Source: Candidatus Omnitrophota bacterium (GTDB lineage Bacteria; Omnitrophota; Gorgyraeia; Zapsychrales; Zapsychraceae). From it: DNA of 64,000 bases. The position numbers and the translations under genes are program-made. The notes beneath the pieces were generated by a model. It did no database searches. It saw nothing but the letters and a program-made list of their open reading frames with translations, and had not been told where the DNA came from. Positions within the stretch are counted from its first letter, which is position 1; every line of letters starts with the position of its first letter. Location: the NCBI GenBank assembly GCA_021108075.1, contig JAIORP010000068.1:74594-138593 (forward strand). The letters run 5' to 3'. This document shows, one piece after another, positions 8,015 through 25,237 of the stretch.

Positions 8015-8270
8015 ATAGAATAAGGGGTCACAACTTGGCAACCAGACTATCTTTACTCAAAGACCTGGGCCAAAGAGAGCCTGAAAAATGTGGTAGAATA
8101 ACGCGTGAAAGAGCCAGAAATAAAGGAGTAATCACCATCACCCTATTCATTCGACCCCGCCCGTCAACCCCGGTCCTGGGGGGCTTTTATGCGAAAGATT
8201 CTCTTTTTTTGTTAGTCCTGAATTTTTTAATGGGAAAGTCGTGGATTAATTGTTTTATGGAAGAAATACA

Positions 8271-8981
8271 ATGAAAGATATCAATGTCATAAATATCAAC
8301 AGTACTAATTTTTATTTACTTAAATGTAAAGAAGGTTATTTGCTTATAGATGCCGGGTGGGTTGGTAAATATAATAATTTTAAAAAGGCGTTAAGCAGAC
8401 TTAATATTAGCATCGATTCCATAAAATTTATATTGATAACGCATCACCATCATGATCACACCGCTCTGGTTCAAGATATTCGTAAAGAAACCAAATGTAA
8501 AATTATCTTACATAAATATGAAACCGGTTATATTGAAAAAGGAATTACCTGTATCAATGAAACCAGGCAGTTCAATATTTATTTACGCTTACTGGACAGG
8601 GTCCTCTCTCCATTTATTAAATATGATTACACTCCAATAGCATTGAATGAATCTGACATAATCATCAATAATGGTCATTACAACATTTATGACCTTACAG
8701 GAATAAAAGGGGAAATATTCCATACGCCGGGACATTCAAAGGGTTCTATTTCATTGCTGTTGTCAAATGGAGACGCTTTCGTCGGGGATGTCGCGATGAA
8801 CATCTTAAAAGTGTTTGGTCATAAATATCGACCGGTTGAAGCGGAAGATTATAGTGAAATATATAAAAGCTGGGAGAAATTAATTCAATACGGCGCAAGA
8901 AATATATATCCTTCGCATGGTCATAAATTTTCTGTTGACGAATTGAGAAAATGTTTATCAGAAGAAAGAAAGTTTATATAA
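8271..8981 (+). CDS. MBL-fold metallo-hydrolase
   Basis: HxHxDH motif (ITHHHHDHTALV) plus downstream His/Asp ligands (HTPGHS, GDVA). A ggaag RBS lies before ATG 8271. Confidence 0.8.
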   Translation: MKDINVININSTNFYLLKCKEGYLLIDAGWVGKYNNFKKALSRLNISIDSIKFILITHHHHDHTALVQDIRKETKCKIILHKYETGYIEKGITCINETRQFNIYLRLLDRVLSPFIKYDYTPIALNESDIIINNGHYNIYDLTGIKGEIFHTPGHSKGSISLLLSNGDAFVGDVAMNILKVFGHKYRPVEAEDYSEIYKSWEKLIQYGARNIYPSHGHKFSVDELRKCLSEERKFI

Positions 8982-9592: not shown

Positions 9593-10491
9593 GATAAAAA
9601 TTTGTAACACATGCACGGTTCCCGTTGTTAGGGAGAAAGACTTCCCTGGCGAAGATTTTCAATGATTTTTTATAGTTGTAAAGAATTTATTTCATTAACG
9701 CGTTTTTGTGTTTTTAGATGTTTCGGGATGCGGGAAGCCTATTGAGAGAATCACACCCGGATCTCTCAATAGTAATTTTCAATTTATTTTATTTGACCCC
9801 CGGTTGATGGATACAAAATAATAGATTTATTCCTTGTCGAATATCAGCCATTTTCCTGAATAATAAGAATGGAAAGAACAGCTGTTTCTTTTTTTAGGAT
9901 AAAACGCTTGATTCCGGTCAAAGGACATGATTGAATACGTATATATCAAATATCAAAATTTAAGAATAATATCAGGGAAGTGGTGCTTTTGTGTTTTTTA
10001 AATTACCAGGGAATGCGCTGGTTTTTTTAATATAGCTGATCCTGAAGAGCGACTAAAATGCTTGAAACAGTTAAAGTTAAGTTAAAAAACATGGTATGGT
10101 TTGCAAGAACACGACGGGAAAAAAAGGAAAACCCGCAAGATAAAACCACAAAAAATAAATGCGATTTATAGTGCGACCTGTTTAAAATCGAGTTAATTCG
10201 GATCATTGATCCGAATCATCCGCTGGCAAATCTGATGAAACAAATAACGGCTCAGCATTTGATCAACGATTTGAGAAGCATTTTGCGGATGAAGGACGGC
10301 CAGCGAGCTCGAAACGATTGATGGTCAGTTTATATTATTTGGTCGGTCCTGAAAAAGCCTGTTTTTAGGCTGTCAGGATCATCTGCTTTAGTAACAGACA
10401 TATGCCGTAACCGGAATGAGATAAAATTTATTTAATTCAGGTCATGGCGCGTGTCTGACATTTATAACCCGGATTTCTTTTGGAGGATAAC

Positions 10492-13400
10492 ATGAAAAGG
10501 TTTATTTACTTATCCCTGATTTCCCTGTTGATGCTTCCGTCCTTACATCATCAAACAGTTTATGCTAAAGAAGAGATGACGCAAGGGATCGGTCAAGAGC
10601 GGCAGGATCGCGGGAATGACTCTCAGTTCAGCATTCAAGAAATTTATGTTCCTTATGAAAATTTGAATGAGGCTTTACAAAAAAAAGAGAAGGGTGTTTT
10701 GATCCCGTATTCTGATTTTTTGCGCTTATGGGAGAAAGCGTCTAAAAAGCCGCCGTCAAAGGCTCCTCCGGTTCCCCCCGTGGACGCGGCTATCATTCAC
10801 TCGGAATACAAGGGAAAGGTTCTTGATGATATTGCCGAGTTTGAAGCGGAACTGAAAATTTCCGCCTTAAAAGAAAAATGGGCTAAATTACATTTAAATA
10901 TAAAAGATATCGCGATTACATCCTTATCTCTTAACGGGAAAACTCCTCTTTTGAAACCGGTTAAAGGGGGATTAGAACTGATCCTGCCGGAAAAAGGTGA
11001 GTATATTCTTAAAGTGAATTTTTCCGCGCAAGTCAATACGTCTCCCGGAGAAAAATTCATCCATTTCCGCGTCCCGTCATCACCTCTTACCAAAATAGAT
11101 ATGACTGTTCCCGGCAAAGATTTAGATGTTAAAATTGAGCCGATGCTTTCTAAGAAAAGTAATGTCGACGGAGATAATACGAAATTCTCCGCGTTTCTCG
11201 CTCCGGGAGGCGATGTGAATATCCGGTGGTTAGCGAAAACAACGGACACGAAAGTAACCAGGAGTCTTATCTTCGCGAAATTATTGAATGAAGTGAATAT
11301 TAAAGAATCTGTTTATTTAATCAACACAAAAATTAATTTTTCGATTATGCAGGCGGAAACAGATTCCTTCCAGGTCAAGATTCCCAAAGCGTTAAGTCTT
11401 GTCCGCGTGGATGGAAAAAACATTAAAGATTGGGAAATGAGTGAAGAGGGGGTCCTAACGGTTAACCTCTATGAAAAAATAGACGGTCAGTATATTCTTT
11501 CTGTGAGCACGGAAAAATACCGTGATTTAGAAGAGAACTCTTTTGAAATCCCTCAGTTTGAAGTGCTTAATGCCAAGAGAGAAGAGGGGGAAATTATTAT
11601 TAAAGCCGAACCGTCTTTACGCGTTCAGGTTGAGAAAAAAGACCGCGTCACACAAATTGATCCGAAAGAACTTCAAGGCCGGGTGACATTTAATGAACTT
11701 GTCTCAGCTTTTAAATATTTTCGACGTCCCTTTCATGTCAGTTTAAATATTTCTAAAATTCAGCCTAAAATTACCGCTGAACAGAATGTTTTTATTTCTT
11801 TTTCTGAAACAATTATTGATTATTACACGAATGTAAAATTTACGGTAAAGGACGCGGGGTTGTTTAAGTTCAGATTTATTATTCCGGATAATTTTAGAAT
11901 CGTTGAGGTCGGATCAGATCAAACGGTTGATAGCTTTGATGTTTCTAAAGAAAAGGATCAGAATATTTTAACTGTTATTTTGAAGAATAAAGCTTACGCC
12001 AATTTTTTGTTACCGATTCATCTGGAAGCCGATAAGGAGGATAAGGATGTTGTGTTGGCTTTGCCGAAAGTTCAATGTTTAGACGCGGAAAAGGAAGAGG
12101 GGATTATTACTCTTTCTCTTCGTAAAAATCTTAAATTATCGACGGACGATATGAAATCTTTGCGTCCGATCAGTCTGGAAGAATTAAAGTCCCAGGGGAC
12201 AAGAGATCCGGATATCAAGAATGAGATAGCAGCAGGTTATCGCTACGCGACACCGGATTATTCCTGTCGTTTGAAAATTGATAAAAGAAAGACAAAAATT
12301 ATCGCGAGTGTTGAACGGAATATTGATGTTGAAGAAGCTGTCATGAAAATTAATGATGTTATCCGTTACAATATTTTATACGCTCCGACAAGTTTGTTCC
12401 GGATAGAGCTTCCTGCCGCGATCGCGAAAGACGTTATTATCAGCGGGAACAATATTAAGGAAAAACGGCTGGCCGTTAATGAAGAAATTCAAAAAGGCGT
12501 TTGGACCATTGAACTTCATTCTCCGACGCTGAATAATTTTGATTTAAATGTTAGTTTCGAAAAGAAACTTCCGTCGATCAAGACAGGAGATGAAAGAATA
12601 ATTGAGGTGCCGGGGATCAGGGTCATTGATGTTTTTAATGAGACCGGGTATATCTCAGTATCGAAAAGTCCTGATCTTCAGGTTGAAGCTAAAGAAAAGA
12701 ATTTAGATCCCGTGGATTCAAAAGAAATTCCTGCCGCTATGAATCGTAGCCAGAGTGTGCTCGCTTTTAGATATTTAAGTCATCCGTACGCGCTTTCTCT
12801 GGAAACGACGAAACATGAGTATGAAAAAATATTGGATGCTGTTGTTAATCAAGCTCATTTTGATATTGTTGTTTCTAATGAAGGTGTCGCGAAAACAGAA
12901 GGGGTTTTCAGAATACAAAATACCAACCGGCAGAGTCTTGAGTTGACCATGCCGGAAGGAATAGATAAAATTTATTCTGTTTTTATTTCCGGTAAAAAAG
13001 CGGGTATATCAAAGGGGGGTTCGGATAGAAGTAAAATTATTATGTTGCCTAAAGATATCGCGCCGGGTAAAGAATTCACGTTGAGAATTATTTATCAAAC
13101 CCAGATAAAATCTAAATTTGGATTCTGGGGCGGACTTCACGTGAAAGGCGCGGAGATTATGGATATTCCCTGTTCGAAGATTACCTGGAGGCTGTATCTT
13201 CCGAATGAATACAGTTATCTGTATTTAAAAGGTTCCATTAATCCCGGCAGAGATGAGCATCGCGCTTATAATCATGTTAATGCTGCTGTGCAATCCCGAC
13301 GGGTCCATCATCAAACAAAAATTAATTTAACCCGTAATCAGATTCCTCAGCAAACAGATGAAGGGACTCTTTACGGCTTAGATATTGAGATGGTCCGGGA

Positions 13401-13764
13401 GGGTCGAATGTTTTCTTTCTCTAAGTTGGATAAAAATGCTTATTTAAATGTGTGTTATCTGAAGAAAAACATTATGTTTCCCTTAAGCATTATTATTGTG
13501 GTCCTGTCAACGTTTTATTTTATAACCCTGACGCAAAGAAAAGATCCGAATAAAACTAAAATGACTTGTGCTATTATCGGAGCGGTGATTGCGTTATATG
13601 TTATTCTGCCTCAAGGGTTTAAACATTTTATGTTTTTGATGCTGGTGGGGGTTGTTTTTTCCGGGGTTGTTTTGGTTATTCAAGCTTATCGGAAGAAAAA
13701 GAAAATGGGTTTAAATGCAGAAACAAACTGTAAAACTTCCGTTCAAAAAGAGAAGAAAATTTAA
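10492..13764 (+). CDS. giant-protein module 1: secreted ~1090-aa protein of unknown family with a C-terminal 3-TM anchor
   Basis: GGAGG RBS before ATG 10492. Signal peptide MKRFIYLSLISLLMLPSLHHQTVYA. Three hydrophobic helices in the last ~100 aa. Shares motifs (GVLIPY, RYF.RPF, TW..Y.PNEYSYLYL) with the downstream giant ORF. Confidence 0.85.
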   Translation: MKRFIYLSLISLLMLPSLHHQTVYAKEEMTQGIGQERQDRGNDSQFSIQEIYVPYENLNEALQKKEKGVLIPYSDFLRLWEKASKKPPSKAPPVPPVDAAIIHSEYKGKVLDDIAEFEAELKISALKEKWAKLHLNIKDIAITSLSLNGKTPLLKPVKGGLELILPEKGEYILKVNFSAQVNTSPGEKFIHFRVPSSPLTKIDMTVPGKDLDVKIEPMLSKKSNVDGDNTKFSAFLAPGGDVNIRWLAKTTDTKVTRSLIFAKLLNEVNIKESVYLINTKINFSIMQAETDSFQVKIPKALSLVRVDGKNIKDWEMSEEGVLTVNLYEKIDGQYILSVSTEKYRDLEENSFEIPQFEVLNAKREEGEIIIKAEPSLRVQVEKKDRVTQIDPKELQGRVTFNELVSAFKYFRRPFHVSLNISKIQPKITAEQNVFISFSETIIDYYTNVKFTVKDAGLFKFRFIIPDNFRIVEVGSDQTVDSFDVSKEKDQNILTVILKNKAYANFLLPIHLEADKEDKDVVLALPKVQCLDAEKEEGIITLSLRKNLKLSTDDMKSLRPISLEELKSQGTRDPDIKNEIAAGYRYATPDYSCRLKIDKRKTKIIASVERNIDVEEAVMKINDVIRYNILYAPTSLFRIELPAAIAKDVIISGNNIKEKRLAVNEEIQKGVWTIELHSPTLNNFDLNVSFEKKLPSIKTGDERIIEVPGIRVIDVFNETGYISVSKSPDLQVEAKEKNLDPVDSKEIPAAMNRSQSVLAFRYLSHPYALSLETTKHEYEKILDAVVNQAHFDIVVSNEGVAKTEGVFRIQNTNRQSLELTMPEGIDKIYSVFISGKKAGISKGGSDRSKIIMLPKDIAPGKEFTLRIIYQTQIKSKFGFWGGLHVKGAEIMDIPCSKITWRLYLPNEYSYLYLKGSINPGRDEHRAYNHVNAAVQSRRVHHQTKINLTRNQIPQQTDEGTLYGLDIEMVREGRMFSFSKLDKNAYLNVCYLKKNIMFPLSIIIVVLSTFYFITLTQRKDPNKTKMTCAIIGAVIALYVILPQGFKHFMFLMLVGVVFSGVVLVIQAYRKKKKMGLNAETNCKTSVQKEKKI

Positions 13765-13783
13765 AACACGGGAAACAAGGATT

Positions 13784-16700
13784 ATGAAAAAAATTTGTAC
13801 ATCCCTGATTTGTCTTTCTGTCTTCTTTTCTTTTTCCGCTTATGCTGAAGACAGGTCTTCGACGCGGATCAAGAATCAAACAGCAGAAACGCTTATCTTT
13901 TTTCCTGAGAAGGAGATAGGGGAAATATTCAAGGCGGAAAAAGAAGGTGTTCTGATACCTTATAAAGAATACAAAAGTCTTTATGAAAAAGCCAGACAGG
14001 AGTACGGGGAAAAAAGAGAGCGGATCATTCTTAATGAAGACATTAAAGGTCCGCAGATCGTTCAAGCTCATTATGATGGATCTGTTCAGGGGGATTTACT
14101 GAAAGTTTCGGTCCGGTATCAGATTGTTCAGAATGACCCGGAGCCGCGAGTTTTACAATTGCCTTTTGGGATTGTTGAAAAATGTGCGGACGCAAGACCC
14201 TGCCGGATGAACGCGGGGGAGTATTTATCGCTGGCCGCGCAAACGAGTGGGAAAAAAACGCGGCAGACGGGTGTTTCGCGTCCGTCTGTTTCTAAAAATG
14301 TTCTTTTTTTGAAGGCGACGCTCAATAATGAGAACGCTCATATCTATAACGATAACAAAACGCCGTCCCTTATTATCCCTTCAAACGGAACCTTTACTTT
14401 AATAATTGATTTTTTTATTCCAATTAATTTTAAGGATAAGACAGGAAATATCGCTATCGATATACCTCCGGCGATGCTGGGGCAGGTCGCGATATCGACA
14501 GATATTTTTTATGATGTCCGTTTTAAAGATTTTCTTTTGACATCAAAAAAACAGGTTGATGACAAAATGGAGTTTCTTGGTTTTCTGCCGTCGATGGAAA
14601 CGTCATTGTCTTTTGAAATAACGAATCGGCGTTCTTCCGGAGAAAAAAGAGTTAAAATCAAGTCACAGGAAGAGCATCAGGCTTTTTTATCCGAGGATCT
14701 GATTGAACAGACGATTATGTATGATATGGATGTTGAAAACGGCGAGGTTGACAGGGTTGATATAATCATCGCGAAAGACCTTAATATTTATGATATATCC
14801 GGGTCTATTATTTCAAATTGGTCTCGGGAATCTAAAGAAGACACGGATATTCTGCATCTTTATTTTCATGTTCCCTTGAGTACGGGGATAACATTTGCTC
14901 TGAAAACATATCAGTATCCGGACGCGGCCTCCGGTATGTTTACTCTAGCGGACGTGCGCGTCGAGAATCTTTTTGAGAGGAAAGGAATTCTCGCGGTTTT
15001 TTATGATGATAGTATGCGGATAAACGCGCGTCAGGTTGATTTTTTATTACCGTTAAGCGGGGAAGGGGGAGTACGAAGACAGCATGAATCTGATCGGTAT
15101 GTTCTTTTTAGGGAGTATCATGTTTTTAATCTGCCTTATAAAATTTCTTTTTCTCAGAAAGATGTTCCCCTGGAGGTGACCCTGTTTCAAAATAATGAAA
15201 TAAAATTGGAACATGCCAGGATCCTATTTCAATCAGAGGTTACTCTGTCCGGGATTACTGAAGAGATAACACGGTTTAATTTTCAAGTTCCGGATAAATA
15301 TGTTTTAAGAAATTTAGACGCTTTTTTAAATGGTGAAGTTGTTAATGAAAATCATCGGCATTTTATGGAAACAGGAGAATTGTCCATTGACATCAGGAAT
15401 CCGGTGAACTTGAAAGATGAAATAACATTTCTGCTTACTTTTGAGCGAATTCTCAACGAGAAATTTTTTATGGATCAATCGTATCCGATTGCTATCCCCG
15501 CGATAACGTATCTGAACACAAAAAAGATGATCGGATCTCTTCAGGTTATAATTGATGAGGAGTTTTTGTTAGAGGATATTATCCTGAAAGGCTATTATCC
15601 CGCCCTGGAGATGATGACGGCTTCTTCATCCCAAACATTAAATAAAAATCTTTTATATGATTTTCGAACGCTCTCGCCGGAAGGATCGCTGGTTCTTTCT
15701 TATCGAAAAGCGGAACAGACAACTCAAACGATCACTTATGTGGCTGTTGACCAGGACCTTCTTCAAACGAATGCCTATATAAAATATGACATCACGGCCG
15801 GCAAGAAAGACCATTTTTATTTTGCTATTCCGCGATGGGAAGACAGCAAAATAAATATTGAAGGTCTTAATATTAAGGAAAAGAAGAAAATAAGTGAGGA
15901 GAAGTTAAAAGAGCTGCTGAAGGACCCCCTGATTCTTGACTTGAAGGATTATGATATTTGGAATGTTGTTCTTCAAAAAGAAATAATAGGTTCTTATTCG
16001 CTGGAAATTGATTATCAGAAAAAAATAGAAAAATTTGATGTCCTTACGGATATTCCTTTGATCATACCGCTCGATATTATTAATGATACCGGTTATATTG
16101 TTTTAGAAGCCAGTAAGAATACGGAAATTGACGCGCAAAAAGTCGGTTTAAATGATATTGAAATTTATGAAATTCCTCAGTGGCCTTCGTATAAACCGTC
16201 TAATCGTATTATTGAATCCTTGCGCTATTTTACACGTCCTTTTACGTTCCGCATTGCTGTTAGGCGCATGGATGAAACCCCTGTTCTTTCCTCGATAGCC
16301 GAAAGAGAAACAATTGTATATACCTTTGGAGAAGACTCGGATATTTTTTTTAAATGTGATTATGTCATCCGCAATACCAATCTTCAGTTTCTTGAAATTC
16401 AGCTCCCGAAAAGATTTGTTCTCTGGGGGGCCACGTTAAAAGGACAGGGAATTAAGCCCCGGAAAGGAAATGACAACCGTTTGTTTGTTCCTCTCCCGAC
16501 GGAAAGTGACCAGAATATTCATTTATCTCTGACCGGACAGATGGTCCGTAAGGGGAAATTCAGGGCCTGGGAATCATTTGATTTTCAAAGTCCCCGATTG
16601 AGTATCCCCTGTCTGCAGTCAAATACCACTGTTTATTTTCCGGAAAAATATTCTCTTCTCAATATTGGAGGTAATTTTGAAAAGTATCCGGAAGCGGAGT

Positions 16701-19700
16701 ATCACAGACCGTTATTGTTTCTTTCTTTAAAAGATCTATGTTTTTTTATCGGAGGAAACGCGATCAATTTGTTTTCTCCCGGATATATATCGCGCGGTCT
16801 TCAGGGACGAATCAGAAGTGTCAACGAGGATATCGGCGATCAATTTGCTCCCGGGAATGCGGTGTTTACGCAGCAAGGACAGGTCCGTGATGCTCCTCAA
16901 GATTTTCAATCGGGAGAACAGTTCGAGGGAGGTATCGGAGCAACGATGCAGTATGAGCCTTATTATTTAGAATCAAATTATGAGGTCACAAGAGATAGAG
17001 AGGTGGCTGTGTCGGAGGAAGAGTCTCTTGAAGAGCAGATGGTGAATTATGACGGACGGCAGCAAATGATGCGGTATGAAAGGAAATACAGTAAAAAGAA
17101 AGGTATTCTTTCCTTGAATATTGATATCCCGCGAGAGGGGCAATCTTTAGCCGCCTATAAACTGTGGGGGAATAGCCGCCTTCAGGTGACATTTATTTCC
17201 GATGTCTGGAAAAGGGTTTTTCATTTTTGTTTTCTTTTTCTTTTTATTGTTTTAGGTTTTCACGTAAAAAGAAAAAAAATAATGTCGTCTTTTATGTTTC
17301 TTGTTTTGACCCTTGTGGTTTGCACGCTTATTCCTCTTGTTGTTTTAAAATCATTTCTTTTTATTTTTAACGGCGCTGCTTTAGGCGCTATCGCGTTTGT
17401 TTTTATTCTGGGGGGTATGAAGCTGGTCAGGAAATTTGCCGGAAAATTCGGTTTTTATAGTGTTCTTTTTTGTCTGGTAGCTTTAACAGGTTTTGCTTGT
17501 CCACGGAACGGGTACGCTGAGGTAAGGGCCGGGAATATGGGTGAACGCCTGTATTCGCCGGACGGTTGTTGTCCTGATGAGGAAGAGAACGACGCGTTTC
17601 CGTCTGTCCGTGTGTACATCCCTTATTCAGAAAATTTTTTGAACGAGATTCAGGGTCATAGTAGAGTTTATATCCCCACTCAAGATTATTTCCGCCTTAA
17701 ATTTTTGGCGGAACCGCCGTATGAACCGAAAGATACGTTTAAATTTGAAAACGAATATGATATTACCGGATTGTTTTTAGCCGGGGAGCTGCAGACAGAT
17801 CGGATTCAGTTTGCGGCAACCGTTGATATTTTTATTAATAACGATAAATGGATACTGGTTGATCTTCCGTTTAAGAATGTGTTTATTGAAAAGTTGACCC
17901 TGGACGGACAATCAATTCCGGTTAAAGTGAAACAATCCGGACCGGGGTGTTTTGAAAGCTTTTTCAAGAGCGCGGAGCCGTATTGTTCGCCGGGGGAGGC
18001 GGATCTTTATGAAATTCCTGTTCTTGGCCGCGGACATCATTCGGTGGACTTAATATTCTTTGTGGAAATTCAATCTTCGCCGGGGAAGAAGACTTTGTCT
18101 TTCGGGCTTCCTCCTGCTCTTTTTTCGGATTTTTCTTTGGATTTAAAGCGTAAGGATGTTTTTCTTGAATTTGAAAAACCGAATAATAGTTTTTATTTGG
18201 ATGAAAGCGGTGTGAACCCTGTTGTTAAGGCGTCTTTGTCCCGACAATCAGAATTAAAACTGTCCTGGTTTCCTAAAAAATATCTTAAAAAGACAGAAAA
18301 ACCTCTTATTTACGCGGACTGCAATATTGATATGCTGATGGGTTATGAAGAAATTATTATTGTTCAAGAAACAAAGATCAGGGTAGAGAAATCTTCAATC
18401 GCGTCATTAAGTTTTTTCCTGGAACCGGATATTGTTATTGTGGATGTTTTTTCGAATAAGGTTAAGAATTGGCAAACACGACAGGAGAAAGGACAATCGG
18501 TCTTAGATGTTATTTTTAAACATGAGATCACGGACACCGTCGATATTGTCATTAAAGCGAAACGGAATGTGAGGCCGGATACGGTTTCTCCGGTGATATT
18601 TTTAAAGCCCCAGACAACAAAAAGGATTCACGGGACACTTAATTTGTTTGCGTCCGAAGAGGATAAACTTATTATTGAAAATGTGACGAATTTAAACCCG
18701 GCGGGGACAACCCGGCAGCACCAGCAAGGGGTGCCGGGCATGAAATTGCTTAAAAGTTATTCTTTCCTGACAGGAGATTTCAGCGCGCGGATTGAAAAGG
18801 TTCCGGAAGAACGAAAAGTCGCCGCCCGGATGAATAGTCAGCATGTTTTCTCGGAAAACCTTTTGAATTCCACATATGACATTAATTTGAATATCAAAAA
18901 GAATTTTCTTACAGCGATACAAATTATTCTTCCCCGGGGGCAAAAGATTGATGCTATCCATGCGGAAAACACGTCAGATTATAGTTTGCAGGATAATATT
19001 CTTGTTTTGCCTTTTAAAAGGGCGGTTAAAGGAAAGTACCGTTTTCAATTAAAGCTGGAAAGAGAAATAGACAATTTTTCTTCAGCCGCTATTGAAAGCA
19101 TTCAACTGCCTGATGTGCAAAAGGTAACCGGCGCTTCGGTTGTATTGTTCCCGCGTGGGTATGATGTTAAGGAGGTGTCTGTTTCGGGTTTAAGGTCGGC
19201 TAACATCAATACGGTGACTCCGTTAATCAAAACGGATCAAGGAGATTACGGCGCGAAATATGCCTATGTTCTTCGTGAAAAGAATTATACGGCCCGGTAT
19301 AACATATTCAAAAAAGATTCTTCTTTGGATGTGATTAAAATTTATCATTCAACCGTGAAAGATAATCTTGTCAGCGTTAAGCTTTTGAGTATTTTTAATA
19401 TCAAGAATGCCCCTGTCGACCATTTTGATATTATCGTCCCGGTTGATTTGAAAGATTCTATTGAAATTCAAGGTGAGGGAATTCAAACGATTCTTAAAAA
19501 AGTTATTAATGAGGGAAAAAGTGTCGCGATTACGGTTAATACAATAGCTAAGATCGATCATTCCTATATGCTACAGGTTTCTTTTAATCGTTATTTCGGT
19601 AATGATAAAACTTTTCATATGCCGCGCATTGTTTTTCCTCAGGCAAAAAACAAAACAGAGTTTATCGCTGTTGAAGCGGACACGGTTTATCATGTGGAAT

Positions 19701-21790
19701 CTTTTGTGAGTGAGTCTCTGTATGAGGCGGAACCGGACAGGATTCCCGCGTTGCCGGATGGGATTGATTTAAATAAAATTCTTTGGTCTTACCAATCCTC
19801 AGGGTCCGCGGAGTGGCAGTGTCGCCTGGAATTAAAACGGTTAGAACGTGAAAAATTGGTTAAAGCCAAGATATTGAGAGAAGACATAAAAACACTTCTT
19901 ATTCCGAATGGTCACGCGTTACATCAAATTGAAATAAAGATAAACAATCGAACGCTTCAGTTTTTGCCTGTTCACTTGCCGTCAACAGCATCTCTTTGGA
20001 GTCTTAAAGTTGCCGGAGAAAATGTTAGAGCGTCGTTAGTCCCGTCAGATAAGAAGGGACAAAAAAAATATTTGATCCCTCTTATTAAAAGCGGGGTCGG
20101 GGATAGAAGTTTTGATATTAAATTGATTTACATTACGCCCCTTAAAGAATTAGGGTTGTTCGGCCGGATTAATTTGTCGAATATGATCAAAACAGGCGAT
20201 GTTCCGGTTGAAAAAACAACATGGTCGGTTTTTGTTCCGGATAATTATTCTTATTTTTATTTCCGATCGAATTTAGATGAAAGTGATATTTCTATTATTG
20301 AAGCTGAAAAGACTCTGGAATTAGCTAAAGAGTATAAGTATTGGACAGATCTGGCCAGTTCAACAAAAGGAGGATTGCGGGAAAAGGCCCTGGATAATCG
20401 GAAAAAGGTTATGAAGGATTATGGGGCTCAATATTCAAGCTACCAGCGTGTGGAGACAGATTTAGCAGGACGGGAAGGAGATAACACATATAATCAGGGG
20501 ATCATTCACAAAGCCAGGTCTCAGAATACGCGGATGCTGGATGAAGCTTCGAAAATTGTTGAATATAACAAAGCCGATTCGCGGACCGTCAATCGCCAGT
20601 TGATTCAATCGGACAAAAAAGCCATGTCAGGACGGAGAAATGTAAAGGGCTGGCAAATTAAAACAAATGATTTCGGCGGGGAAGATCAGGTTGAACAGTC
20701 GATTACAAATTATCTTCAGCAGGAAGATTTGAAACAGTCTGTTAAAGGTAAGGGCGGAAAAGATAAAGGACGCAAATATTCCAAGTCGCAGCTTTTGGGG
20801 AGGAAACAGGCGCAATCAGCCCGTCAAAAAAAGGATATGGCCAGATCGTCTTTGAAGGGCCGGGCGCGTCAACAAGGCGGGTATCAAACGTCACAGACAA
20901 TGGACGTCTATGATTATGAGGATCAAACAACTCAGACAGAGCATATTTTTTATAAACAAAGCGATATGTCTGAGGGGAAAATGATAGTTAATGGGCTTGC
21001 GCGGGGTGCTGGTCGAGAGAAGGAAGAGTCTGGTTCCTTTTGGGGAGCGGATGGGTCTGCCCCGGCTCCAATTGTTCAAATTTTTTCCGGGGCAGGTAAC
21101 AAGATGCCGATTCAACAGCAGCAGGAAAAAAGAAGCACACTTCTTAAGGGACTTCGATCTATTGATATTCCTATTCCGGAACAAGGTATACGCTATTCTT
21201 ATAAGAAGTTAGGGGGAAATCCGCAAATAAAATTCTATTACCGCAGGAAAGGAAGCCTGTTGAAAATATGTTTGCTTTTGATGTGTATGGTTGCTGTCGG
21301 CGGGATTTATAAGTTTCGTCAATACCGTTTTCCTAAGGAGAAATTATTAGGAGTTTTTAAAGGAATAAACCCGGTAACTATTGTCCGTAAGATTATAGAC
21401 TCGCAGTTGCTAAGAATTGTGATTGTTGTTCTTATTGTTCCGACCTTTTTTATGCAGTCGCCGATTTGTGTTGTGTTAGTAGGCCTTTCCAGTGTTTTTC
21501 TTTTGACGCATATCTCTAAGAAACGTTATCGGAAGATAGGATATGTCCCGGTGTATAGTTTTATAATATTTTTAAAATATTTTATTTCCTACGCGATTCT
21601 GCTCGTGTCCTTCTTGAGCTTTTTTCATATGTCTTTTCTTTTTCTCGTCGGTGTTGGAATATTTTTTAATGTTATATGGATTGTTATTTATAGTATTGTT
21701 ACATTGTGCACAAAGAAAGTTGTGCTTAAGAATCCTGAAAATTCAAACGATGAGGGCGTATCGTCTTTTTCCGGTGAGGGGCCGGCATAG
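13784..21790 (+). CDS. giant ~2668-aa protein of unknown family, made of two tandem modules paralogous to 10492-13764
   Basis: Signal peptide at ATG 13784 (MKKICTSLICLSVFFSFSAYA). A central cluster of four TM helices at ~17200-17500 is followed by a signal-peptide-like segment (LTGFACPRNGYAEV). A second TM bundle lies at the C-terminus. The recurring motifs are EGVLIPYKEYKSLYEKA, RVYIPTQDYFRLKF, RYFTRPF and TWSVFVPDNYSYFYF. Confidence 0.85.
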   Translation: MKKICTSLICLSVFFSFSAYAEDRSSTRIKNQTAETLIFFPEKEIGEIFKAEKEGVLIPYKEYKSLYEKARQEYGEKRERIILNEDIKGPQIVQAHYDGSVQGDLLKVSVRYQIVQNDPEPRVLQLPFGIVEKCADARPCRMNAGEYLSLAAQTSGKKTRQTGVSRPSVSKNVLFLKATLNNENAHIYNDNKTPSLIIPSNGTFTLIIDFFIPINFKDKTGNIAIDIPPAMLGQVAISTDIFYDVRFKDFLLTSKKQVDDKMEFLGFLPSMETSLSFEITNRRSSGEKRVKIKSQEEHQAFLSEDLIEQTIMYDMDVENGEVDRVDIIIAKDLNIYDISGSIISNWSRESKEDTDILHLYFHVPLSTGITFALKTYQYPDAASGMFTLADVRVENLFERKGILAVFYDDSMRINARQVDFLLPLSGEGGVRRQHESDRYVLFREYHVFNLPYKISFSQKDVPLEVTLFQNNEIKLEHARILFQSEVTLSGITEEITRFNFQVPDKYVLRNLDAFLNGEVVNENHRHFMETGELSIDIRNPVNLKDEITFLLTFERILNEKFFMDQSYPIAIPAITYLNTKKMIGSLQVIIDEEFLLEDIILKGYYPALEMMTASSSQTLNKNLLYDFRTLSPEGSLVLSYRKAEQTTQTITYVAVDQDLLQTNAYIKYDITAGKKDHFYFAIPRWEDSKINIEGLNIKEKKKISEEKLKELLKDPLILDLKDYDIWNVVLQKEIIGSYSLEIDYQKKIEKFDVLTDIPLIIPLDIINDTGYIVLEASKNTEIDAQKVGLNDIEIYEIPQWPSYKPSNRIIESLRYFTRPFTFRIAVRRMDETPVLSSIAERETIVYTFGEDSDIFFKCDYVIRNTNLQFLEIQLPKRFVLWGATLKGQGIKPRKGNDNRLFVPLPTESDQNIHLSLTGQMVRKGKFRAWESFDFQSPRLSIPCLQSNTTVYFPEKYSLLNIGGNFEKYPEAEYHRPLLFLSLKDLCFFIGGNAINLFSPGYISRGLQGRIRSVNEDIGDQFAPGNAVFTQQGQVRDAPQDFQSGEQFEGGIGATMQYEPYYLESNYEVTRDREVAVSEEESLEEQMVNYDGRQQMMRYERKYSKKKGILSLNIDIPREGQSLAAYKLWGNSRLQVTFISDVWKRVFHFCFLFLFIVLGFHVKRKKIMSSFMFLVLTLVVCTLIPLVVLKSFLFIFNGAALGAIAFVFILGGMKLVRKFAGKFGFYSVLFCLVALTGFACPRNGYAEVRAGNMGERLYSPDGCCPDEEENDAFPSVRVYIPYSENFLNEIQGHSRVYIPTQDYFRLKFLAEPPYEPKDTFKFENEYDITGLFLAGELQTDRIQFAATVDIFINNDKWILVDLPFKNVFIEKLTLDGQSIPVKVKQSGPGCFESFFKSAEPYCSPGEADLYEIPVLGRGHHSVDLIFFVEIQSSPGKKTLSFGLPPALFSDFSLDLKRKDVFLEFEKPNNSFYLDESGVNPVVKASLSRQSELKLSWFPKKYLKKTEKPLIYADCNIDMLMGYEEIIIVQETKIRVEKSSIASLSFFLEPDIVIVDVFSNKVKNWQTRQEKGQSVLDVIFKHEITDTVDIVIKAKRNVRPDTVSPVIFLKPQTTKRIHGTLNLFASEEDKLIIENVTNLNPAGTTRQHQQGVPGMKLLKSYSFLTGDFSARIEKVPEERKVAARMNSQHVFSENLLNSTYDINLNIKKNFLTAIQIILPRGQKIDAIHAENTSDYSLQDNILVLPFKRAVKGKYRFQLKLEREIDNFSSAAIESIQLPDVQKVTGASVVLFPRGYDVKEVSVSGLRSANINTVTPLIKTDQGDYGAKYAYVLREKNYTARYNIFKKDSSLDVIKIYHSTVKDNLVSVKLLSIFNIKNAPVDHFDIIVPVDLKDSIEIQGEGIQTILKKVINEGKSVAITVNTIAKIDHSYMLQVSFNRYFGNDKTFHMPRIVFPQAKNKTEFIAVEADTVYHVESFVSESLYEAEPDRIPALPDGIDLNKILWSYQSSGSAEWQCRLELKRLEREKLVKAKILREDIKTLLIPNGHALHQIEIKINNRTLQFLPVHLPSTASLWSLKVAGENVRASLVPSDKKGQKKYLIPLIKSGVGDRSFDIKLIYITPLKELGLFGRINLSNMIKTGDVPVEKTTWSVFVPDNYSYFYFRSNLDESDISIIEAEKTLELAKEYKYWTDLASSTKGGLREKALDNRKKVMKDYGAQYSSYQRVETDLAGREGDNTYNQGIIHKARSQNTRMLDEASKIVEYNKADSRTVNRQLIQSDKKAMSGRRNVKGWQIKTNDFGGEDQVEQSITNYLQQEDLKQSVKGKGGKDKGRKYSKSQLLGRKQAQSARQKKDMARSSLKGRARQQGGYQTSQTMDVYDYEDQTTQTEHIFYKQSDMSEGKMIVNGLARGAGREKEESGSFWGADGSAPAPIVQIFSGAGNKMPIQQQQEKRSTLLKGLRSIDIPIPEQGIRYSYKKLGGNPQIKFYYRRKGSLLKICLLLMCMVAVGGIYKFRQYRFPKEKLLGVFKGINPVTIVRKIIDSQLLRIVIVVLIVPTFFMQSPICVVLVGLSSVFLLTHISKKRYRKIGYVPVYSFIIFLKYFISYAILLVSFLSFFHMSFLFLVGVGIFFNVIWIVIYSIVTLCTKKVVLKNPENSNDEGVSSFSGEGPA

Positions 21791-21956
21791 GTTTTTTTGA
21801 TCCTTTTTATTTAATGCCGCGTTTCAGGGGACATTATCAAGAATTGTGTCTCTTTTTTTTTGATGTTTGGCCAACGTCACTTCCTGATGGGTCATTTATA
21901 AAGGATATTATAAAATACGAAATCAGTCAGTTTTTGGCGCGCTCGTTCTATTGATA

Positions 21957-22038: not shown

Positions 22039-22316
22039 AAGATATGTTCATAAGAGTAAAGAAGAAATTATAATATTTTTTGTTTAGACGCGTCCGGTAT
22101 TCTCAGCCGGATTAGCGGGATCCCCAAAAGTTTTTTAATCAGAAATTTTTGAAAATTAGCGCCAACAGTTCTTGAAGCAGTAAGTACAACGGGTGTGAGC
22201 CCGTGGGAAGCTATTCAGTCATTTTTATTGCAAAATTTGGGTTGAATGTCAGGTTTAAAATTATGGTAGTGAATAAAAACAACATTTATCAAAAAGAAAA
22301 AATACTGGAAGCAAGA

Positions 22317-22766: not shown

Positions 22767-22830
22767 CCATTTTTTGCGTCTGAAAAACGGCAGGTGACCT
22801 TTGTGTTGTACGGATAAAAAAAGGAAAAAA

Positions 22831-24054
22831 ATGAAAAATAAACTTAAAATTATTCAAAGTATTGCGGTTGCCACCTTTTTTTTAAGCCCTTCTTTTATTT
22901 TCGCGGAAACAAGTCGTGATTTACAAACAGTGGTAAAAGGCAATAGTAATTTCGGTTTCGATTTATACCAAAATCTTAAAGGGGAAGAAGGGAATTTATT
23001 CTTTTCACCCTATAGCATCTCTACAGCACTCGCAATGACATATGCGGGCGCTCGGGGCCAAACAGAAAAAGAAATGGCAAGAGTCTTGCATTTTTCTTTG
23101 GAACAGGATTCCCTCCATTTTTCACTTTCAAAACTTCAGACCCATCTGAATGCCATTCAAAATAAAGGACATATTAAACTGAGTATAGCTAATTCATTAT
23201 GGGCGCAAAAGAATTATCTTTTTTTGGACACTTTTTTTGATTTGAACAAAAAGTACTACGGTGCTGGTTTAAATTTTGTTGATTTTGAAAAAGAAACCGA
23301 AACGGCAAGAATAGCCATAAATACATGGGTCGAAAATGAAACGCAGCAAAAAATCAAAGAGTTAATCAAACGGGGCGGGATTGATTCCGTAACGACATTG
23401 GTCCTCTGTAATGCGATTTATTTTAAAGGTAATTGGTTCAGTCAATTTGATAAAGAAAGGACAGCGGATGCTGATTTTTATATTTCACCCGTCAAAACCA
23501 TAAAGATTCCTATGATGAGCAAAAAATCAGAGTTTAAATTTAAAGATTTTGGTAATTTTAGCGCTATAGAGTTTCCGTACGAAGGAAATGATCTGTCCAT
23601 GATTGTTTTTCTCCCCAAAGAAATAGATGGCCTGGTAGAATTTGAAAGAAACCTGACAGATGATAACGTAGGAATTTGGACCGATAAACTGATAGCGTCT
23701 TATAAGTCGGAAATTTTGGTTGACTTTCCTAAATTTAAAACTACTTGTGAATTTGAATTATCGAAAATGTTTAGTGGCATGGGTATGCCGAGTGCTTTTT
23801 CGCTTCCCCCTGCTGATTTTTCCGGCATGACAGGCCGAAAAGACCTTTTTATAAGTAAAATTATTCATAAGGCTTTCATAGACGTCAATGAAGAAGGAAC
23901 AGAAGCTGCCGCGGCAACGGCCGTGGTTATGCAGATGTTCGCAATAAGTAGACCGTTAACATTTCGAGCAAACCATCCCTTTGTTTTTTTAATACGTGAA
24001 AGTCGAACAGGAAGCATTTTGTTTATTGGCAGGATTCTTGATCCAACAAAATAA
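22831..24054 (+). CDS. serpin (serine protease inhibitor), secreted
   Basis: Serpin motifs are FSPYSISTALAMTYAGARGQT, NAIYFKGNW, the hinge EEGTEAAAATAV and the C-terminal HPFVFLIRE...SILFIGRILDP. An N-terminal signal peptide is present. Confidence 0.85.
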   Translation: MKNKLKIIQSIAVATFFLSPSFIFAETSRDLQTVVKGNSNFGFDLYQNLKGEEGNLFFSPYSISTALAMTYAGARGQTEKEMARVLHFSLEQDSLHFSLSKLQTHLNAIQNKGHIKLSIANSLWAQKNYLFLDTFFDLNKKYYGAGLNFVDFEKETETARIAINTWVENETQQKIKELIKRGGIDSVTTLVLCNAIYFKGNWFSQFDKERTADADFYISPVKTIKIPMMSKKSEFKFKDFGNFSAIEFPYEGNDLSMIVFLPKEIDGLVEFERNLTDDNVGIWTDKLIASYKSEILVDFPKFKTTCEFELSKMFSGMGMPSAFSLPPADFSGMTGRKDLFISKIIHKAFIDVNEEGTEAAAATAVVMQMFAISRPLTFRANHPFVFLIRESRTGSILFIGRILDPTK

Positions 24055-24649: not shown

Positions 24650-25237
24650 ATGCACACAGTACTGAATAGAAATATTTTCTTCGTTAAAGAACACGTAGGA
24701 ATGTTCAAGGCAGCCAATAATTATGATATCTATGACCCCGACACCGAGTCGGTCATCATGGAGTGCCGAGAGGACCGACTGGGCATTCTGACCAGGATTT
24801 TAAGGTTCACAGACTACAAGCGAATGACCCCGTTTGATATACAGATCAGGACTCCGGAAGGACAGCAGGTCATTCGTGTGAAGAGGGGAATATCGTTGTT
24901 TCTGTCGAAGGTGCAGGTTCTGGATGAAAATGATCATGTCATCGGTATGTTTAAGCAGAAGTTTTTCTCGTTAGGTGGAGCCTTTACGGTACTCGACGCC
25001 AGTGAAAACCCGGTGTGCCAACTCAAAGGTAAATGGACGGGATGGGACTTTAAGTTTTTGGACGGTGAAACTGAACTGGCGCATGTTACTAAAAAGTGGG
25101 CGGGAATAGGTAAGGAGTTTTTTACCAGCGCGGATAACTATGTGTTGCAGATTTCAGACTGCGTGCCTACCGATGATGTGGCACGGTACCTGATCGTTGC
25201 CGCTGTAATGTGTATTGACATGGTATTAAAAGAATAG
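24650..25237 (+). CDS. tubby C-terminal-like / LURP-one-related (DUF567-like) protein
   Basis: ~195 aa with a pattern of alternating beta strands (FDIQIRTPEGQQVIRVKRGISLFLSKVQVLDENDHVIGMFKQKFFSLGGAFTVLD...) that resembles the scramblase/LURP1 fold. The assignment is tentative. Confidence 0.4.
   Translation: MHTVLNRNIFFVKEHVGMFKAANNYDIYDPDTESVIMECREDRLGILTRILRFTDYKRMTPFDIQIRTPEGQQVIRVKRGISLFLSKVQVLDENDHVIGMFKQKFFSLGGAFTVLDASENPVCQLKGKWTGWDFKFLDGETELAHVTKKWAGIGKEFFTSADNYVLQISDCVPTDDVARYLIVAAVMCIDMVLKE

What the first reader, a model, noticed from the sequence alone, without database searches (positions are those of the whole stretch)
10492..21790. Two adjacent giant genes encode three tandem paralogous ~1100-1400-aa surface modules of an unrecognised family
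ORF A (10492-13764) and the two halves of ORF B (13784-~17200 and ~17500-21790) share the same architecture. Each has a signal peptide, then a conserved N-terminal motif ([E/K]GVLIPY..[F/Y]..L[W/Y]EKA; in module 3, RVYIPTQDYFRLKF). Each then has a ~1000-aa region that looks beta-rich, with a recurring RYF.RPF block, and a near-C-terminal motif [IV]P[CV]....TW.[LV][FY].P[ND][EN]YSY[LF]Y[LF] (13182-13232 and 20218-20262, with a degenerate copy at 16630-16670). Each ends in a multi-helix transmembrane bundle. I recognise no catalytic or adhesin domain (no cadherin, Ig, LRR, VWA or peptidase motif). A secreted inhibitory serpin and a DUF3592 protein lie immediately downstream. Together these genes take up 11.3 kb, about 18% of the window. 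This looks like a lineage-specific envelope or surface system.
Basis: seen in the sequence. Interest (0 to 1): 0.85.

Follow-up and report, generated by a model that had tools for sequence, protein, structure and literature searches.

The report
Triplicated membrane-anchored beta-sandwich envelope proteins
Two adjacent genes of an Omnitrophota bacterium encode three related, enzyme-less proteins that are anchored in the inner membrane and extend rods of beta-sandwich domains into the cell envelope; they belong to a very large, widespread protein family that no curated database describes and whose function is unknown.

Summary
ORF A (10492-13764) and both halves of ORF B (13784-21790) are paralogues (BLASTP E=1e-34 and 4e-28; profile E about 1e-100 per module).

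Each module has:
- an export signal;
- a conserved tethered N-terminal peptide;
- five beta-sandwich domains, the middle three being tandem ~175-aa repeats;
- a linker of variable length;
- a conserved hairpin;
- a helical membrane anchor.

The family is not lineage-specific. It covers 9,882 clusters at 50% identity (3,573 at E<=1e-30), as single- and double-module forms, in Omnitrophota, Verrucomicrobiota, Planctomycetota and other phyla. The A+B pair recurs in every complete Omnitrophota-type locus I fetched. No flanking gene is conserved, and a terminator-like hairpin follows ORF B, so the link to the serpin and DUF3592 genes is coincidental.

The B1/B2 junction keeps an internal signal peptide with an AxA site.

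Best reading: a non-catalytic, inner-membrane-anchored periplasmic scaffold built from three paralogues. Its function is inferred, not shown.

The parts
10492..13764 (+). ORF A: single-module protein, 1090 aa. It is the most conserved of the three paralogues.
   Evidence: It is 100% identical to NCBI K8S27_04735 of a Candidatus Omnitrophica MAG. A-type modules are each other's best hits across distant loci.
10492..10569 (+). ORF A signal peptide (MKRF…QTVYA|KE).
   Evidence: Read from the sequence: a hydrophobic core followed by V-Y-A. The AF2 model shows an N-terminal helix at low pLDDT.
10636..10785 (+). Conserved N-terminal peptide (IYVPY…GVLIPYSDFLRLWEKA) followed by a Pro-rich tether.
   Evidence: P72, F76, L79 and the PP pair are nearly invariant across 29 sequences. 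The motif is kept in all three modules and in homologues of 17-25% identity. pLDDT is 45-61, so it is not docked in the monomer model.
10774..11259 (+). ORF A domain D1, a beta-sandwich.
   Evidence: AF2 strands 99-247, pLDDT 80-92.
11260..12837 (+). ORF A: three tandem ~175-aa repeats (residues 257-424, 425-600, 601-782), each ending in an [FY]RY..P[FY] block.
   Evidence: hhalign probability 99.5-99.8%, E=1e-22 to 1e-29 between the slices. Repeat alignment A7. The fold matches the M1-aminopeptidase N-domain and OST1.
12838..13266 (+). ORF A domain D5, a beta-sandwich ending in the W.LYLP..YSY motif (13165-13227).
   Evidence: P821, Y868 and P904 are invariant.
13267..13464 (+). ORF A variable linker and conserved membrane-proximal beta-hairpin (GLDIEMVREGRMFSFSKLDKNAYLNVCY).
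   Evidence: AF2 strands 971-978 and 984-991. The same element is matched in every module by the family HMM.
13465..13761 (+). ORF A membrane anchor of three helices, with a short Lys-rich cytoplasmic tail.
   Evidence: The loop and tail charges follow the positive-inside rule.
13784..21790 (+). ORF B: double-module protein, 2668 aa, starting 19 nt after ORF A's stop codon.
   Evidence: Homologues of 2500-2750 aa follow the A-type gene in all complete Omnitrophota-type loci.
13784..17518 (+). Module B1 (residues 1-1245). Signal peptide 13784-13846; N-motif 13901-13999; repeats about 14636-16288; degenerate C-motif 16595-16669; acidic linker 16661-17083; hairpin 17090-17203; three membrane helices 17204-17422.
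   Evidence: HMM E=4e-100 and 6e-12. Repeat HMM hits. Linker net charge is -11. Coordinates.
17435..17518 (+). Internal signal-peptide-like segment at the B1/B2 junction, with an AxA-type site (…LVALTGFACPRNGYA|EV).
   Evidence: The hydrophobic segment followed by a small-x-small site before E or Q is kept in homologues of only 17-19% identity. Cleavage is inferred, not shown.
17519..21787 (+). Module B2 (residues 1246-2668). N-motif 17597-17713; repeats about 18296-19855; C-motif 20201-20263; three-helix bundle 20279-20614; basic disordered linker 20615-21178; hairpin 21179-21253; about five membrane helices 21254-21709.
   Evidence: HMM E=1.5e-100 and 2.5e-6. AF2 of residues 2130-2668 gives helices with pLDDT 80-92, then about 190 residues at pLDDT about 28. 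Linker charge is +12.
21771..21800 (+). Terminator-like hairpin (CCGG-TGAGGGG-CCGG) plus T-run that overlaps the ORF B stop codon.
   Evidence: A 410-bp gap and a promoter-like site (22047-22074) precede the DUF3592 gene.

Best explanation
ORF A and ORF B form an autonomous two-gene operon. It encodes three ancient paralogues (A, B1, B2) of one widespread, uncurated protein family.

**Shown, or directly read from sequence and model.** Each paralogue is exported by a Sec-type signal and held in the inner membrane by C-terminal alpha-helices. Its cytoplasmic parts are only short basic loops and tails. Its periplasmic part has three sections:
- a conserved peptide on a proline-rich tether;
- a rod of five beta-sandwich domains, three of which are tandem ~175-aa repeats with the M1-aminopeptidase-N / OST1 (ribophorin I) fold;
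- a linker that differs between paralogues: short and neutral in A, acidic in B1, and a three-helix bundle plus a basic disordered stretch in B2.

The proteins contain no catalytic motif, no cytoplasmic domain and no ATPase.

**Inferred.**
- ORF B is a fusion of two genes. It keeps the second gene's signal peptide and is probably cut there by signal peptidase I.
- The three products assemble about 1:1:1 into a non-catalytic scaffold that is anchored in the inner membrane and lies in the periplasm. This scaffold would bind or organise an envelope component, much as OST1 is a non-catalytic lumenal scaffold.
- The tethered N-terminal peptides and the oppositely charged linkers are candidate contacts between the modules.
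- The linker is a site where lineages insert accessory binding domains.
For: **Paralogy and shared architecture.**

**An old triplication with specialised copies.** A, B1 and B2 each find their own type in loci of only about 26% identity. The A+B pair is present in L001, L002, L005, L009, L010, L012, L014-L018 and L023.

**An autonomous unit.** No flanking gene is shared between loci. The two genes are 19 nt apart, and a terminator-like site follows ORF B.

**Topology.** Signal peptides, anchor helices and the positive-inside charge pattern agree.

**Fold.** The AF2 model has pLDDT about 90 in the ectodomain.
- Foldseek: the top eight hits are all OST1/ribophorin I, E=5e-11 to 1e-8, over about 500 aligned columns.

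**No enzyme signature.** Pfam and NCBIfam are empty. There is no HExxH and no CxEQ. The invariant residues are G, P, W and Y plus one E and one R.

**Junction site.** The internal signal peptide with an AxA site is conserved.

**Linkers as insertion sites.**
- Three-helix bundle plus disordered stretch in the window's B2.
- SQHop_cyclase_C-like domain in the B2 linker of L023.
- Pseudopilin-like insert in the module-1 linker of Verrucomicrobia members.

**Linker charges.** -11 in B1 and +12 in B2.
Against: - No experiment or interaction prediction supports assembly of the three modules. The tools fold single chains only.
- pTM of the ORF A model is 0.40, so the arrangement of the domains is uncertain.
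- Other lineages carry one, two or three modules per locus: L022 has one, L021 has two single genes, and L004, L019, L024 and L025 have a double gene alone. A three-part complex is therefore not obligatory for the family.
- Cleavage at the junction rests on a motif only.
- The similarity to OST1 is at the fold level only. The M1-N fold is widespread, so it says little about function.
- What the scaffold binds is unknown. The gene neighbourhoods give only weak, inconsistent hints: VWA genes in L004 and L019, and sugar or lipid envelope genes in L005, L024 and L025.
Confidence: 0.5

Rival explanations
1. The modules are cell-surface adhesins or an S-layer-like coat, displayed on the outside of the cell.
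For: They are large, multi-domain beta-sandwich rods without enzymes, as many adhesins are. Foldseek also matches integrin alpha legs at E about 1e-8. Two of 31 family members gave weak Por_Secre_tail hits. The window also carries host-interaction-type genes: ankyrin, serpin, scramblase and MORN.
Against: Each module ends in 3-5 alpha-helical membrane segments that follow the positive-inside rule. This anchors it in the cytoplasmic membrane. There is no autotransporter barrel, SLH domain, LPXTG motif or T9SS domain in the window's proteins. Related loci carry OmpA, LpxK and heptosyltransferase genes, so these lineages are diderm.
Confidence: 0.1
2. The modules are protease traps or protease-defence proteins that work with the neighbouring serpin. 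This would be analogous to inner-membrane-anchored bacterial alpha-2-macroglobulins.
For: A serpin gene lies 1 kb downstream. The general layout is shared: a large multi-sandwich periplasmic protein on the inner membrane. One family member has an alpha/alpha-toroid (SQHop_cyclase_C-like) domain, the fold type of thioester domains.
Confidence: 0.04
3. The family members are leg-like partners of VWA-domain proteins, in an integrin-like arrangement of a beta-sandwich leg plus a metal-dependent VWA head. They would mediate binding in the envelope. The window's cassette would use an unlinked VWA partner.
For: Double-module genes sit beside VWA genes in two distant lineages. L004 (Aureliella) has an ECF sigma factor, a 1162-aa VWA/YfbK_C protein, then the family member. 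L019 has the family member followed by a VIT-VWA protein. The model matches integrin alpha legs and the ITIH1 VIT domain.
Against: No VWA gene is adjacent in the window or in any of the 12 or more Omnitrophota-type loci, nor in L021, L022, L024 or L025. VWA genes are very common in Planctomycetota, so two adjacencies may be chance.
Confidence: 0.1
4. The 3+4+5 membrane helices form a pseudo-trimeric channel or transporter, and the ectodomains form its periplasmic chamber.
For: There are three paralogous membrane-anchored modules. The periplasmic loop LPQGFK between helices 2 and 3 of the A type is invariant within the close group.
Against: The membrane helices are the least conserved part of the family (consensus lines). 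Their number differs between modules. There is no cytoplasmic energising domain and no transporter family hit above noise. Foldseek on the B2 C-terminal model found nothing with E<=0.001.
Confidence: 0.05
5. The three modules do not assemble. They are functionally independent or partly redundant paralogues of a self-sufficient single-module protein that happen to stay adjacent.
For: Single-module genes occur alone (L022) and double-module genes occur alone (L004, L019, L024, L025). Among the top 150 family representatives, 64 are single-length and 80 are double-length.
Against: The order A, B1, B2 and the identity of each paralogue are kept down to about 26% identity. The persistent B1-B2 fusion suggests matched amounts. 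The three linkers have diverged in complementary ways.
Confidence: 0.15

Closest known systems
OST1 / ribophorin I, the non-catalytic subunit of the eukaryotic oligosaccharyltransferase (PF04597)
   Different: No sequence similarity is detectable. The window's modules have five domains rather than two and three or more anchor helices rather than one, and they come as three paralogues. No STT3, PglB or AglB gene lies in any of the loci examined. TM-scores are low (0.25-0.33 on the target).
N-terminal beta-sandwich domain of M1 aminopeptidases and LTA4 hydrolase (PF17900)
   Different: There is no catalytic domain, no HExxH and no GxMEN. Here the domain is repeated in tandem and anchored in the membrane.
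VIT domain of inter-alpha-trypsin-inhibitor heavy chains and bacterial VIT-VWA proteins (PF08487)
   Different: There is no sequence match and no VWA domain in these proteins or next to them in the window.
Inner-membrane-anchored periplasmic multi-sandwich proteins such as bacterial alpha-2-macroglobulin and BatD
   Same: Same overall layout: a large periplasmic chain of beta-sandwiches tethered to the inner membrane with no cytoplasmic domain. This comparison rests on my own knowledge of those families.
   Different: No MG, A2M or BatD profile hit. The best is BatD at E=0.094, in 1 of 23 repeats. There is no thioester motif. The sandwich fold class is different.
   Same: Uncharacterised bacterial beta-rich envelope proteins.
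   Different: No hit to DUF4139, DUF4140 or TIGR02231, even at E<=10 on isolated domains.
Giant proteins of Omnitrophota (10.1101/2023.11.21.568195; 10.64898/2026.06.07.730766)
   Same: Same phylum. Membrane-associated, and largely unannotated by sequence methods.
   Different: Those proteins are >=10,000 aa, carry many enzyme or SecA-like domains and have dozens of membrane helices. The proteins here are 1,090 and 2,668 aa, have none of those domains, and belong to a family that extends well beyond Omnitrophota.

Membership tests
OST1 / ribophorin I (PF04597) | Sequence match to the family profile | tested here: not met
   No Ribophorin_I hit for the whole proteins, for isolated domains at E<=10, for 31 diverse members or for 23 repeat copies. 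Family and repeat profiles find no OST1 chain in the PDB at E<=10.
OST1 / ribophorin I (PF04597) | Tandem non-cytoplasmic beta-sandwich domains of this fold, followed by a membrane helix | tested here: met
OST1 / ribophorin I (PF04597) | Subunit of an STT3-type oligosaccharyltransferase complex | tested here: inconclusive
   No STT3, PglB or AglB gene lies within 10 kb in any locus examined. Physical association cannot be tested with these tools.
M1 aminopeptidase | N-domain beta-sandwich fold | tested here: met
M1 aminopeptidase | Thermolysin-like catalytic domain with HExxH…E zinc site | tested here: not met
   No Peptidase_M1 hit. There is no HExxH anywhere in ORF A or ORF B.
DUF4139 / MuiA (TIGR02231) | Match to the DUF4139, DUF4140 or TIGR02231 profiles | tested here: not met
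   no hit even at E<=10.
Bacterial alpha-2-macroglobulin | MG domains and a CxEQ thioester domain | tested here: not met
   No A2M-family Pfam hit. No C[GL]EQ motif. No A2M among the listed structural hits.
VIT domain (PF08487) | Sequence match to VIT, usually followed by a VWA domain | tested here: not met
   No VIT or VWA hit. The similarity to ITIH1 is at fold level only.
Outer-surface display systems (autotransporter, S-layer SLH, T9SS cargo, LPXTG) | Beta-barrel translocator, SLH domain, Por_Secre_tail or sortase signal | tested here: not met
   None is found in ORF A or ORF B. The C-termini are alpha-helical membrane anchors.
Omnitrophota giant proteins | Length >=10,000 aa with SecA_DEAD, C39 or dockerin domains or multi-enzyme content | tested here: not met
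   The lengths are 1,090 and 2,668 aa, and no such domains are present.
The uncurated family itself (profile A5 built here) | Signal, N-terminal [VI]PY…F..LW peptide, D1, three (rarely four) ~175-aa repeats ending in [FY]RY..P[FY], D5 with W.LY.P..Y.Y, linker, hairpin, helical anchor | tested here: met
   All three window modules match end to end. Repeats are shown, motifs. The family has 9,882 / 7,027 / 3,573 clusters at E<=1e-3 / 1e-10 / 1e-30.

The most novel reading that the evidence does not exclude
The family is a true, very distant bacterial relative of the OST1/ribophorin I type of lumenal scaffold, not just a look-alike. The A+B1+B2 set would form a previously unseen hetero-trimeric periplasmic complex of about 15 beta-sandwich domains that organises an envelope glycan- or lipid-handling machine in PVC-group and related bacteria. 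That would define a new envelope structure and would give the non-catalytic subunits of eukaryotic oligosaccharyltransferase a prokaryotic root.
Probability: 0.07. Interest if true: 0.8.

Novelty: new variant of a known kind. Interest (0 to 1): 0.5.

Why it matters
A family with thousands of 50%-identity clusters, present in several phyla, has no Pfam or NCBIfam model. Where it is named at all, it is misnamed: PulG, GspG, GspH or a YwqK antitoxin.

This analysis defines:
- the module;
- the internal ~175-aa repeat and its fold class;
- the membrane topology;
- the conserved three-paralogue cassette.

Together these give annotators a usable family definition. They give experimentalists concrete targets: cleavage at the B1/B2 junction, assembly of the three modules, and the envelope phenotype in cultured Planctomycetota or Verrucomicrobiota that carry homologues.

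If the modules do form a periplasmic scaffold, it would be a new structural component of the envelope in PVC-group bacteria and Omnitrophota. Those envelopes are poorly understood.

Tried and rejected
- **Family scans.** Pfam and NCBIfam scans of the whole proteins, of seven isolated segments at E<=10, of 31 diverse family members and of 23 repeat copies gave only scattered sub-threshold noise.
- **PDB sequence searches.** The family profile and the repeat profile found nothing meaningful.
- **The 1184-aa ORF at 27405-30959.** I tested whether it is a fourth module. It is unrelated.
- **Conserved neighbours.** All-against-all BLAST of ORFs from 19 loci produced only shadow ORFs inside the two genes. 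This rejects the serpin/DUF3592 link.
- **B2 C-terminal region.** The AF2 model has low overall confidence. It shows a generic three-helix bundle, a disordered stretch and an anchor, and Foldseek found no significant match.
- **Wider word-indexed search.** A third search with a diverse alignment did not widen the hit list.
- **Genome-collection scan.** The narrower one returned close relatives only.
- **afdb50 fold library.** Not available.
- **Promoter and terminator scan.** Counts are at the level expected by chance. Only the site at the ORF B stop codon is used here, and only as supporting evidence.
- **Literature.** Searches found papers on Omnitrophota giant proteins (a different class) and nothing on this family.
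- **Rfam and tRNA scans of the window.** Empty.
Full report
**1. The observation**

The region holds two long ORFs on the + strand. ORF A runs 10492-13764 (1090 aa). Its ATG has GGAGG 7 nt upstream.

ORF B's open frame begins at 13715. The ATG at 13784 yields a typical signal peptide and aligns with the N-termini of homologues. ORF B is therefore 13784-21790 (2668 aa), starting 19 nt after ORF A's stop codon.

The paralogy is well beyond chance:
- BLASTP of A against B gives two collinear full-length alignments, to B 1265-2165 (E=1e-34) and to B 38-975 (E=4e-28).
- The two halves of B match each other at E=2e-9.
- An HMM built from diverse single-module homologues hits ORF B twice end to end (4e-100 and 1.5e-100). 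It gives separate hits to the membrane-proximal part of each half.

**2. Anatomy of a module**

The AlphaFold2 model of ORF A (29-sequence alignment) has mean pLDDT 79.8, and about 90 across residues 100-920. pTM is 0.40, so the individual domains are reliable but their mutual arrangement is not.

The model shows, in order:
- a signal peptide;
- a low-confidence N-terminal region holding the conserved peptide IYVPY…GVLIPYSDFLRLWEKA and a Pro-rich tether;
- an all-beta ectodomain (residues 99-991);
- three membrane helices (992-1081).

Slicing the family alignment and comparing the slices with hhalign shows that residues 257-424, 425-600 and 601-782 are homologous repeats (probability 99.5-99.8%, E=1e-22 to 1e-29). 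The flanking sandwiches D1 and D5 are not clearly related to them.

A repeat HMM finds three copies in B1 and B2 as well, and four in some relatives.

After D5, which ends in W.LYLP..YSY, comes a variable linker. It is followed by a conserved beta-hairpin (GLDIEMVREGRMFSFSKLDKNAYLNVCY in A) directly before the first membrane helix.

Loop and tail charges follow the positive-inside rule. The ectodomains are therefore periplasmic, and the cytoplasmic parts are only short basic stretches.

**3. The fusion in ORF B**

B1 ends with three membrane helices and a basic loop. Next comes a fourth hydrophobic segment ending …FACPRNGYA|EV.

The same arrangement, a hydrophobic stretch followed by a small-x-small site before E or Q, is present in homologues that are only 17-19% identical. 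It resembles the N-terminal signals of ORF A (TVYA|KE) and ORF B (SAYA|ED).

I infer two things. ORF B is a fusion of two ancestral genes that retains the second gene's signal peptide. It may be cut there by signal peptidase I. The cut is not shown.

B2's C-terminal 539 residues were modelled separately (pLDDT 55 overall). The model shows:
- a confident three-helix bundle (B 2166-2277, pLDDT 80-92);
- about 190 disordered residues;
- the hairpin;
- about five membrane helices.

Foldseek finds only generic helical bundles, none with E<=0.001.

The linkers differ in charge: about 0 in A, -11 in B1 and +12 in B2.

**4. What the fold resembles**

Foldseek ranks eight OST1/ribophorin I chains first (E=4.6e-11 to 1.2e-8, about 500 aligned columns). 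Integrin alpha legs follow.

No catalytic domain is matched. Neither ORF contains HExxH or CxEQ. The invariant residues of the family are mostly G, P, W and Y.

At the sequence level there is no link to any of these families. Pfam, NCBIfam and PDB profile searches are empty for the whole proteins, the isolated domains, 31 diverse members and 23 repeat copies. The only trace is one marginal Peptidase_M1_N hit (E=0.007) in one member.

**5. The family and its distribution**

ORF A is identical to a hypothetical protein of a Candidatus Omnitrophica MAG.

A profile search of 1.84 billion cluster representatives finds 9,882 clusters at E<=1e-3, 7,027 at E<=1e-10 and 3,573 at E<=1e-30. Of the top 150, 64 have single-module length and 80 have double-module length.

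Source names place members in Omnitrophota, Auribacterota, Elusimicrobiota, Desulfobacterales, Planctomycetota (Aureliella) and Verrucomicrobiota (Limisphaerales, Pedosphaera). Some high-identity fragments are labelled Heimdallarchaeota, Spirochaetes or Zixibacteria. These probably reflect mis-binning.

The family is therefore widespread, not lineage-specific.

**6. Gene neighbourhood**

An A-type gene of about 1,100 aa, followed directly by a B-type gene of about 2,600 aa, is found in every complete Omnitrophota-type locus. It is also found in two distant sets, L005 (about 26% identity) and L023. Across these, A finds A, B2 finds B2, and B1 roughly finds B1. The triplication is therefore old, and A is the most conserved copy.

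Other lineages differ:
- L021 has two single-module genes.
- L022 has one single-module gene.
- L004, L019, L024 and L025 have a double-module gene alone.

All-against-all comparison of ORFs from 19 non-redundant loci finds no conserved flanking gene.

In the window, ORF B's stop codon overlaps a hairpin plus T-run. A 410-bp gap with a promoter-like site precedes the DUF3592 gene. The serpin and DUF3592 genes are thus chance neighbours.

The other hints are weak. VWA genes lie next to the family member in L004 and L019. Sugar or lipid envelope genes lie nearby in L005, L024 and L025.

**7. Accessory insertions**

The linker between D5 and the hairpin varies by lineage:
- a three-helix bundle plus a disordered basic stretch in the window's B2;
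- a SQHop_cyclase_C-like alpha/alpha-toroid in the B2 linker of L023 (E=2.5e-11);
- a pseudopilin-like segment (…LLPALAKAKxKAQRI..NNLKQIG…) in the module-1 linker of Verrucomicrobiota members.

The last of these explains why pipelines call those proteins PulG, GspG or GspH.

**8. Interpretation**

Shown:
- three paralogous, exported, inner-membrane-anchored modules;
- a five-sandwich ectodomain with three M1-N/OST1-fold repeats;
- no enzyme or cytoplasmic domain;
- an autonomous cassette;
- a very large uncurated family.

Inferred:
- a non-catalytic periplasmic scaffold or binding role;
- assembly of A, B1 and B2;
- processing at the junction;
- the N-terminal tethered peptides and the oppositely charged linkers as contacts between modules.

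I put about 0.5 on this package. The descriptive part is close to certain. The hetero-oligomer and scaffold part is about one in three.

The rivals are each less likely, for the reasons given in their entries: surface adhesin, protease trap working with the serpin, partner of VWA proteins, channel, and independent paralogues.

**9. Novelty and score**

This is not a member of any curated family. Its fold and general layout are of a known kind, closest to OST1/ribophorin I by structure. I rate it a new variant of a known kind.

Interest is 0.5. The family's size, its lack of annotation and the conserved triplication with a retained internal signal peptide are noteworthy. But large beta-sandwich envelope proteins of unknown function are common in environmental bacteria, and no mechanism is established.

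Noticed in passing
window 1180-2778 (-): An intact-looking IS5/IS1182-type transposase ORF of 532 aa, with DDE_Tnp_1_6, DDE_Tnp_1 and DUF772 domains.
   Followed up: partly
window ~10170-10340 (+), inside the ~900-bp non-coding stretch 9593-10491 upstream of ORF A: Frameshifted fragments (…ELIRIIDPNHPLANLMKQI… then …FDQRFEKHFADEGRPASSKRLMVSLYYLVGPEK…) look, from my own knowledge of the domain, like the N-terminus of a DUF772-type transposase. This would be a decayed insertion sequence next to the cassette. tblastn with the transposase at 1180-2778 found no hit.
   Followed up: partly
window 3821-4684, 22801-24054, 24650-25237, 34430-35062 (all +): Several genes with domains more typical of eukaryotes or host-associated bacteria lie in one 64-kb window: ankyrin repeats, a full-length serpin (E=1e-122), a scramblase and MORN repeats. 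This fits the host-dependent lifestyle proposed for Omnitrophota (PMC10066038 abstract). None is linked to the cassette.
   Followed up: no
window 27405-30959 (+): A 1184-aa ORF with an N-terminal hydrophobic segment and no Pfam hit. It is unrelated to the three modules.
   Followed up: partly
window 6699-7958 (+): A 419-aa predicted membrane protein with C-terminal CxxC pairs and no Pfam hit. It sits in a stretch of GC 0.50, against 0.35-0.40 around it. It may be foreign DNA.
   Followed up: no
P0052, P0063, P0068 (Verrucomicrobiota double-module proteins); L024, L025: These family members carry a pseudopilin-like segment in the module-1 linker (weak GspG/PilA/ComGC hits at residues about 900-1200), and some have an extra N-terminal domain. 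Annotation pipelines therefore,600-aa proteins 'PulG', 'GspG' or 'GspH family'. One cluster is called a YwqK antitoxin.
   Followed up: partly
L023 10001-18487 (P0104), residues 2340-2437: A SQHop_cyclase_C-like alpha/alpha-toroid domain (E=2.5e-11) sits in the B2 linker, where the window's protein has a three-helix bundle and a disordered stretch. L023 also has a metallo-beta-lactamase-fold gene upstream of its A-type gene. The window has one too, at 8250-8981, separated from ORF A by a TrmO gene.
   Followed up: partly
L004 5794-9833 and L019 17322-19703: Double-module genes lie next to VWA proteins in two distant lineages. In Aureliella an ECF sigma factor and a 1162-aa VWA/YfbK_C protein lie upstream. 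In L019 a 793-aa VIT-VWA protein lies downstream.
   Followed up: partly
L002/L003 4778-7803 and L019 23448-26530: The cytochrome c maturation genes ResB and CcsA (Cytochrom_C_asm) lie within about 6 kb of the family genes in two lineages whose family proteins are only about 20% identical. This may be chance.
   Followed up: no
P0027, P0031, P0201; L017, L018: Proteins 64-71% identical to ORF A are labelled Zixibacteria, Heimdallarchaeota, Spirochaetes, Planctomycetales or Thermodesulfobacteriota in their source MAGs. At that identity, mis-binned Omnitrophota contigs are more likely than wide recent transfer.
   Followed up: no
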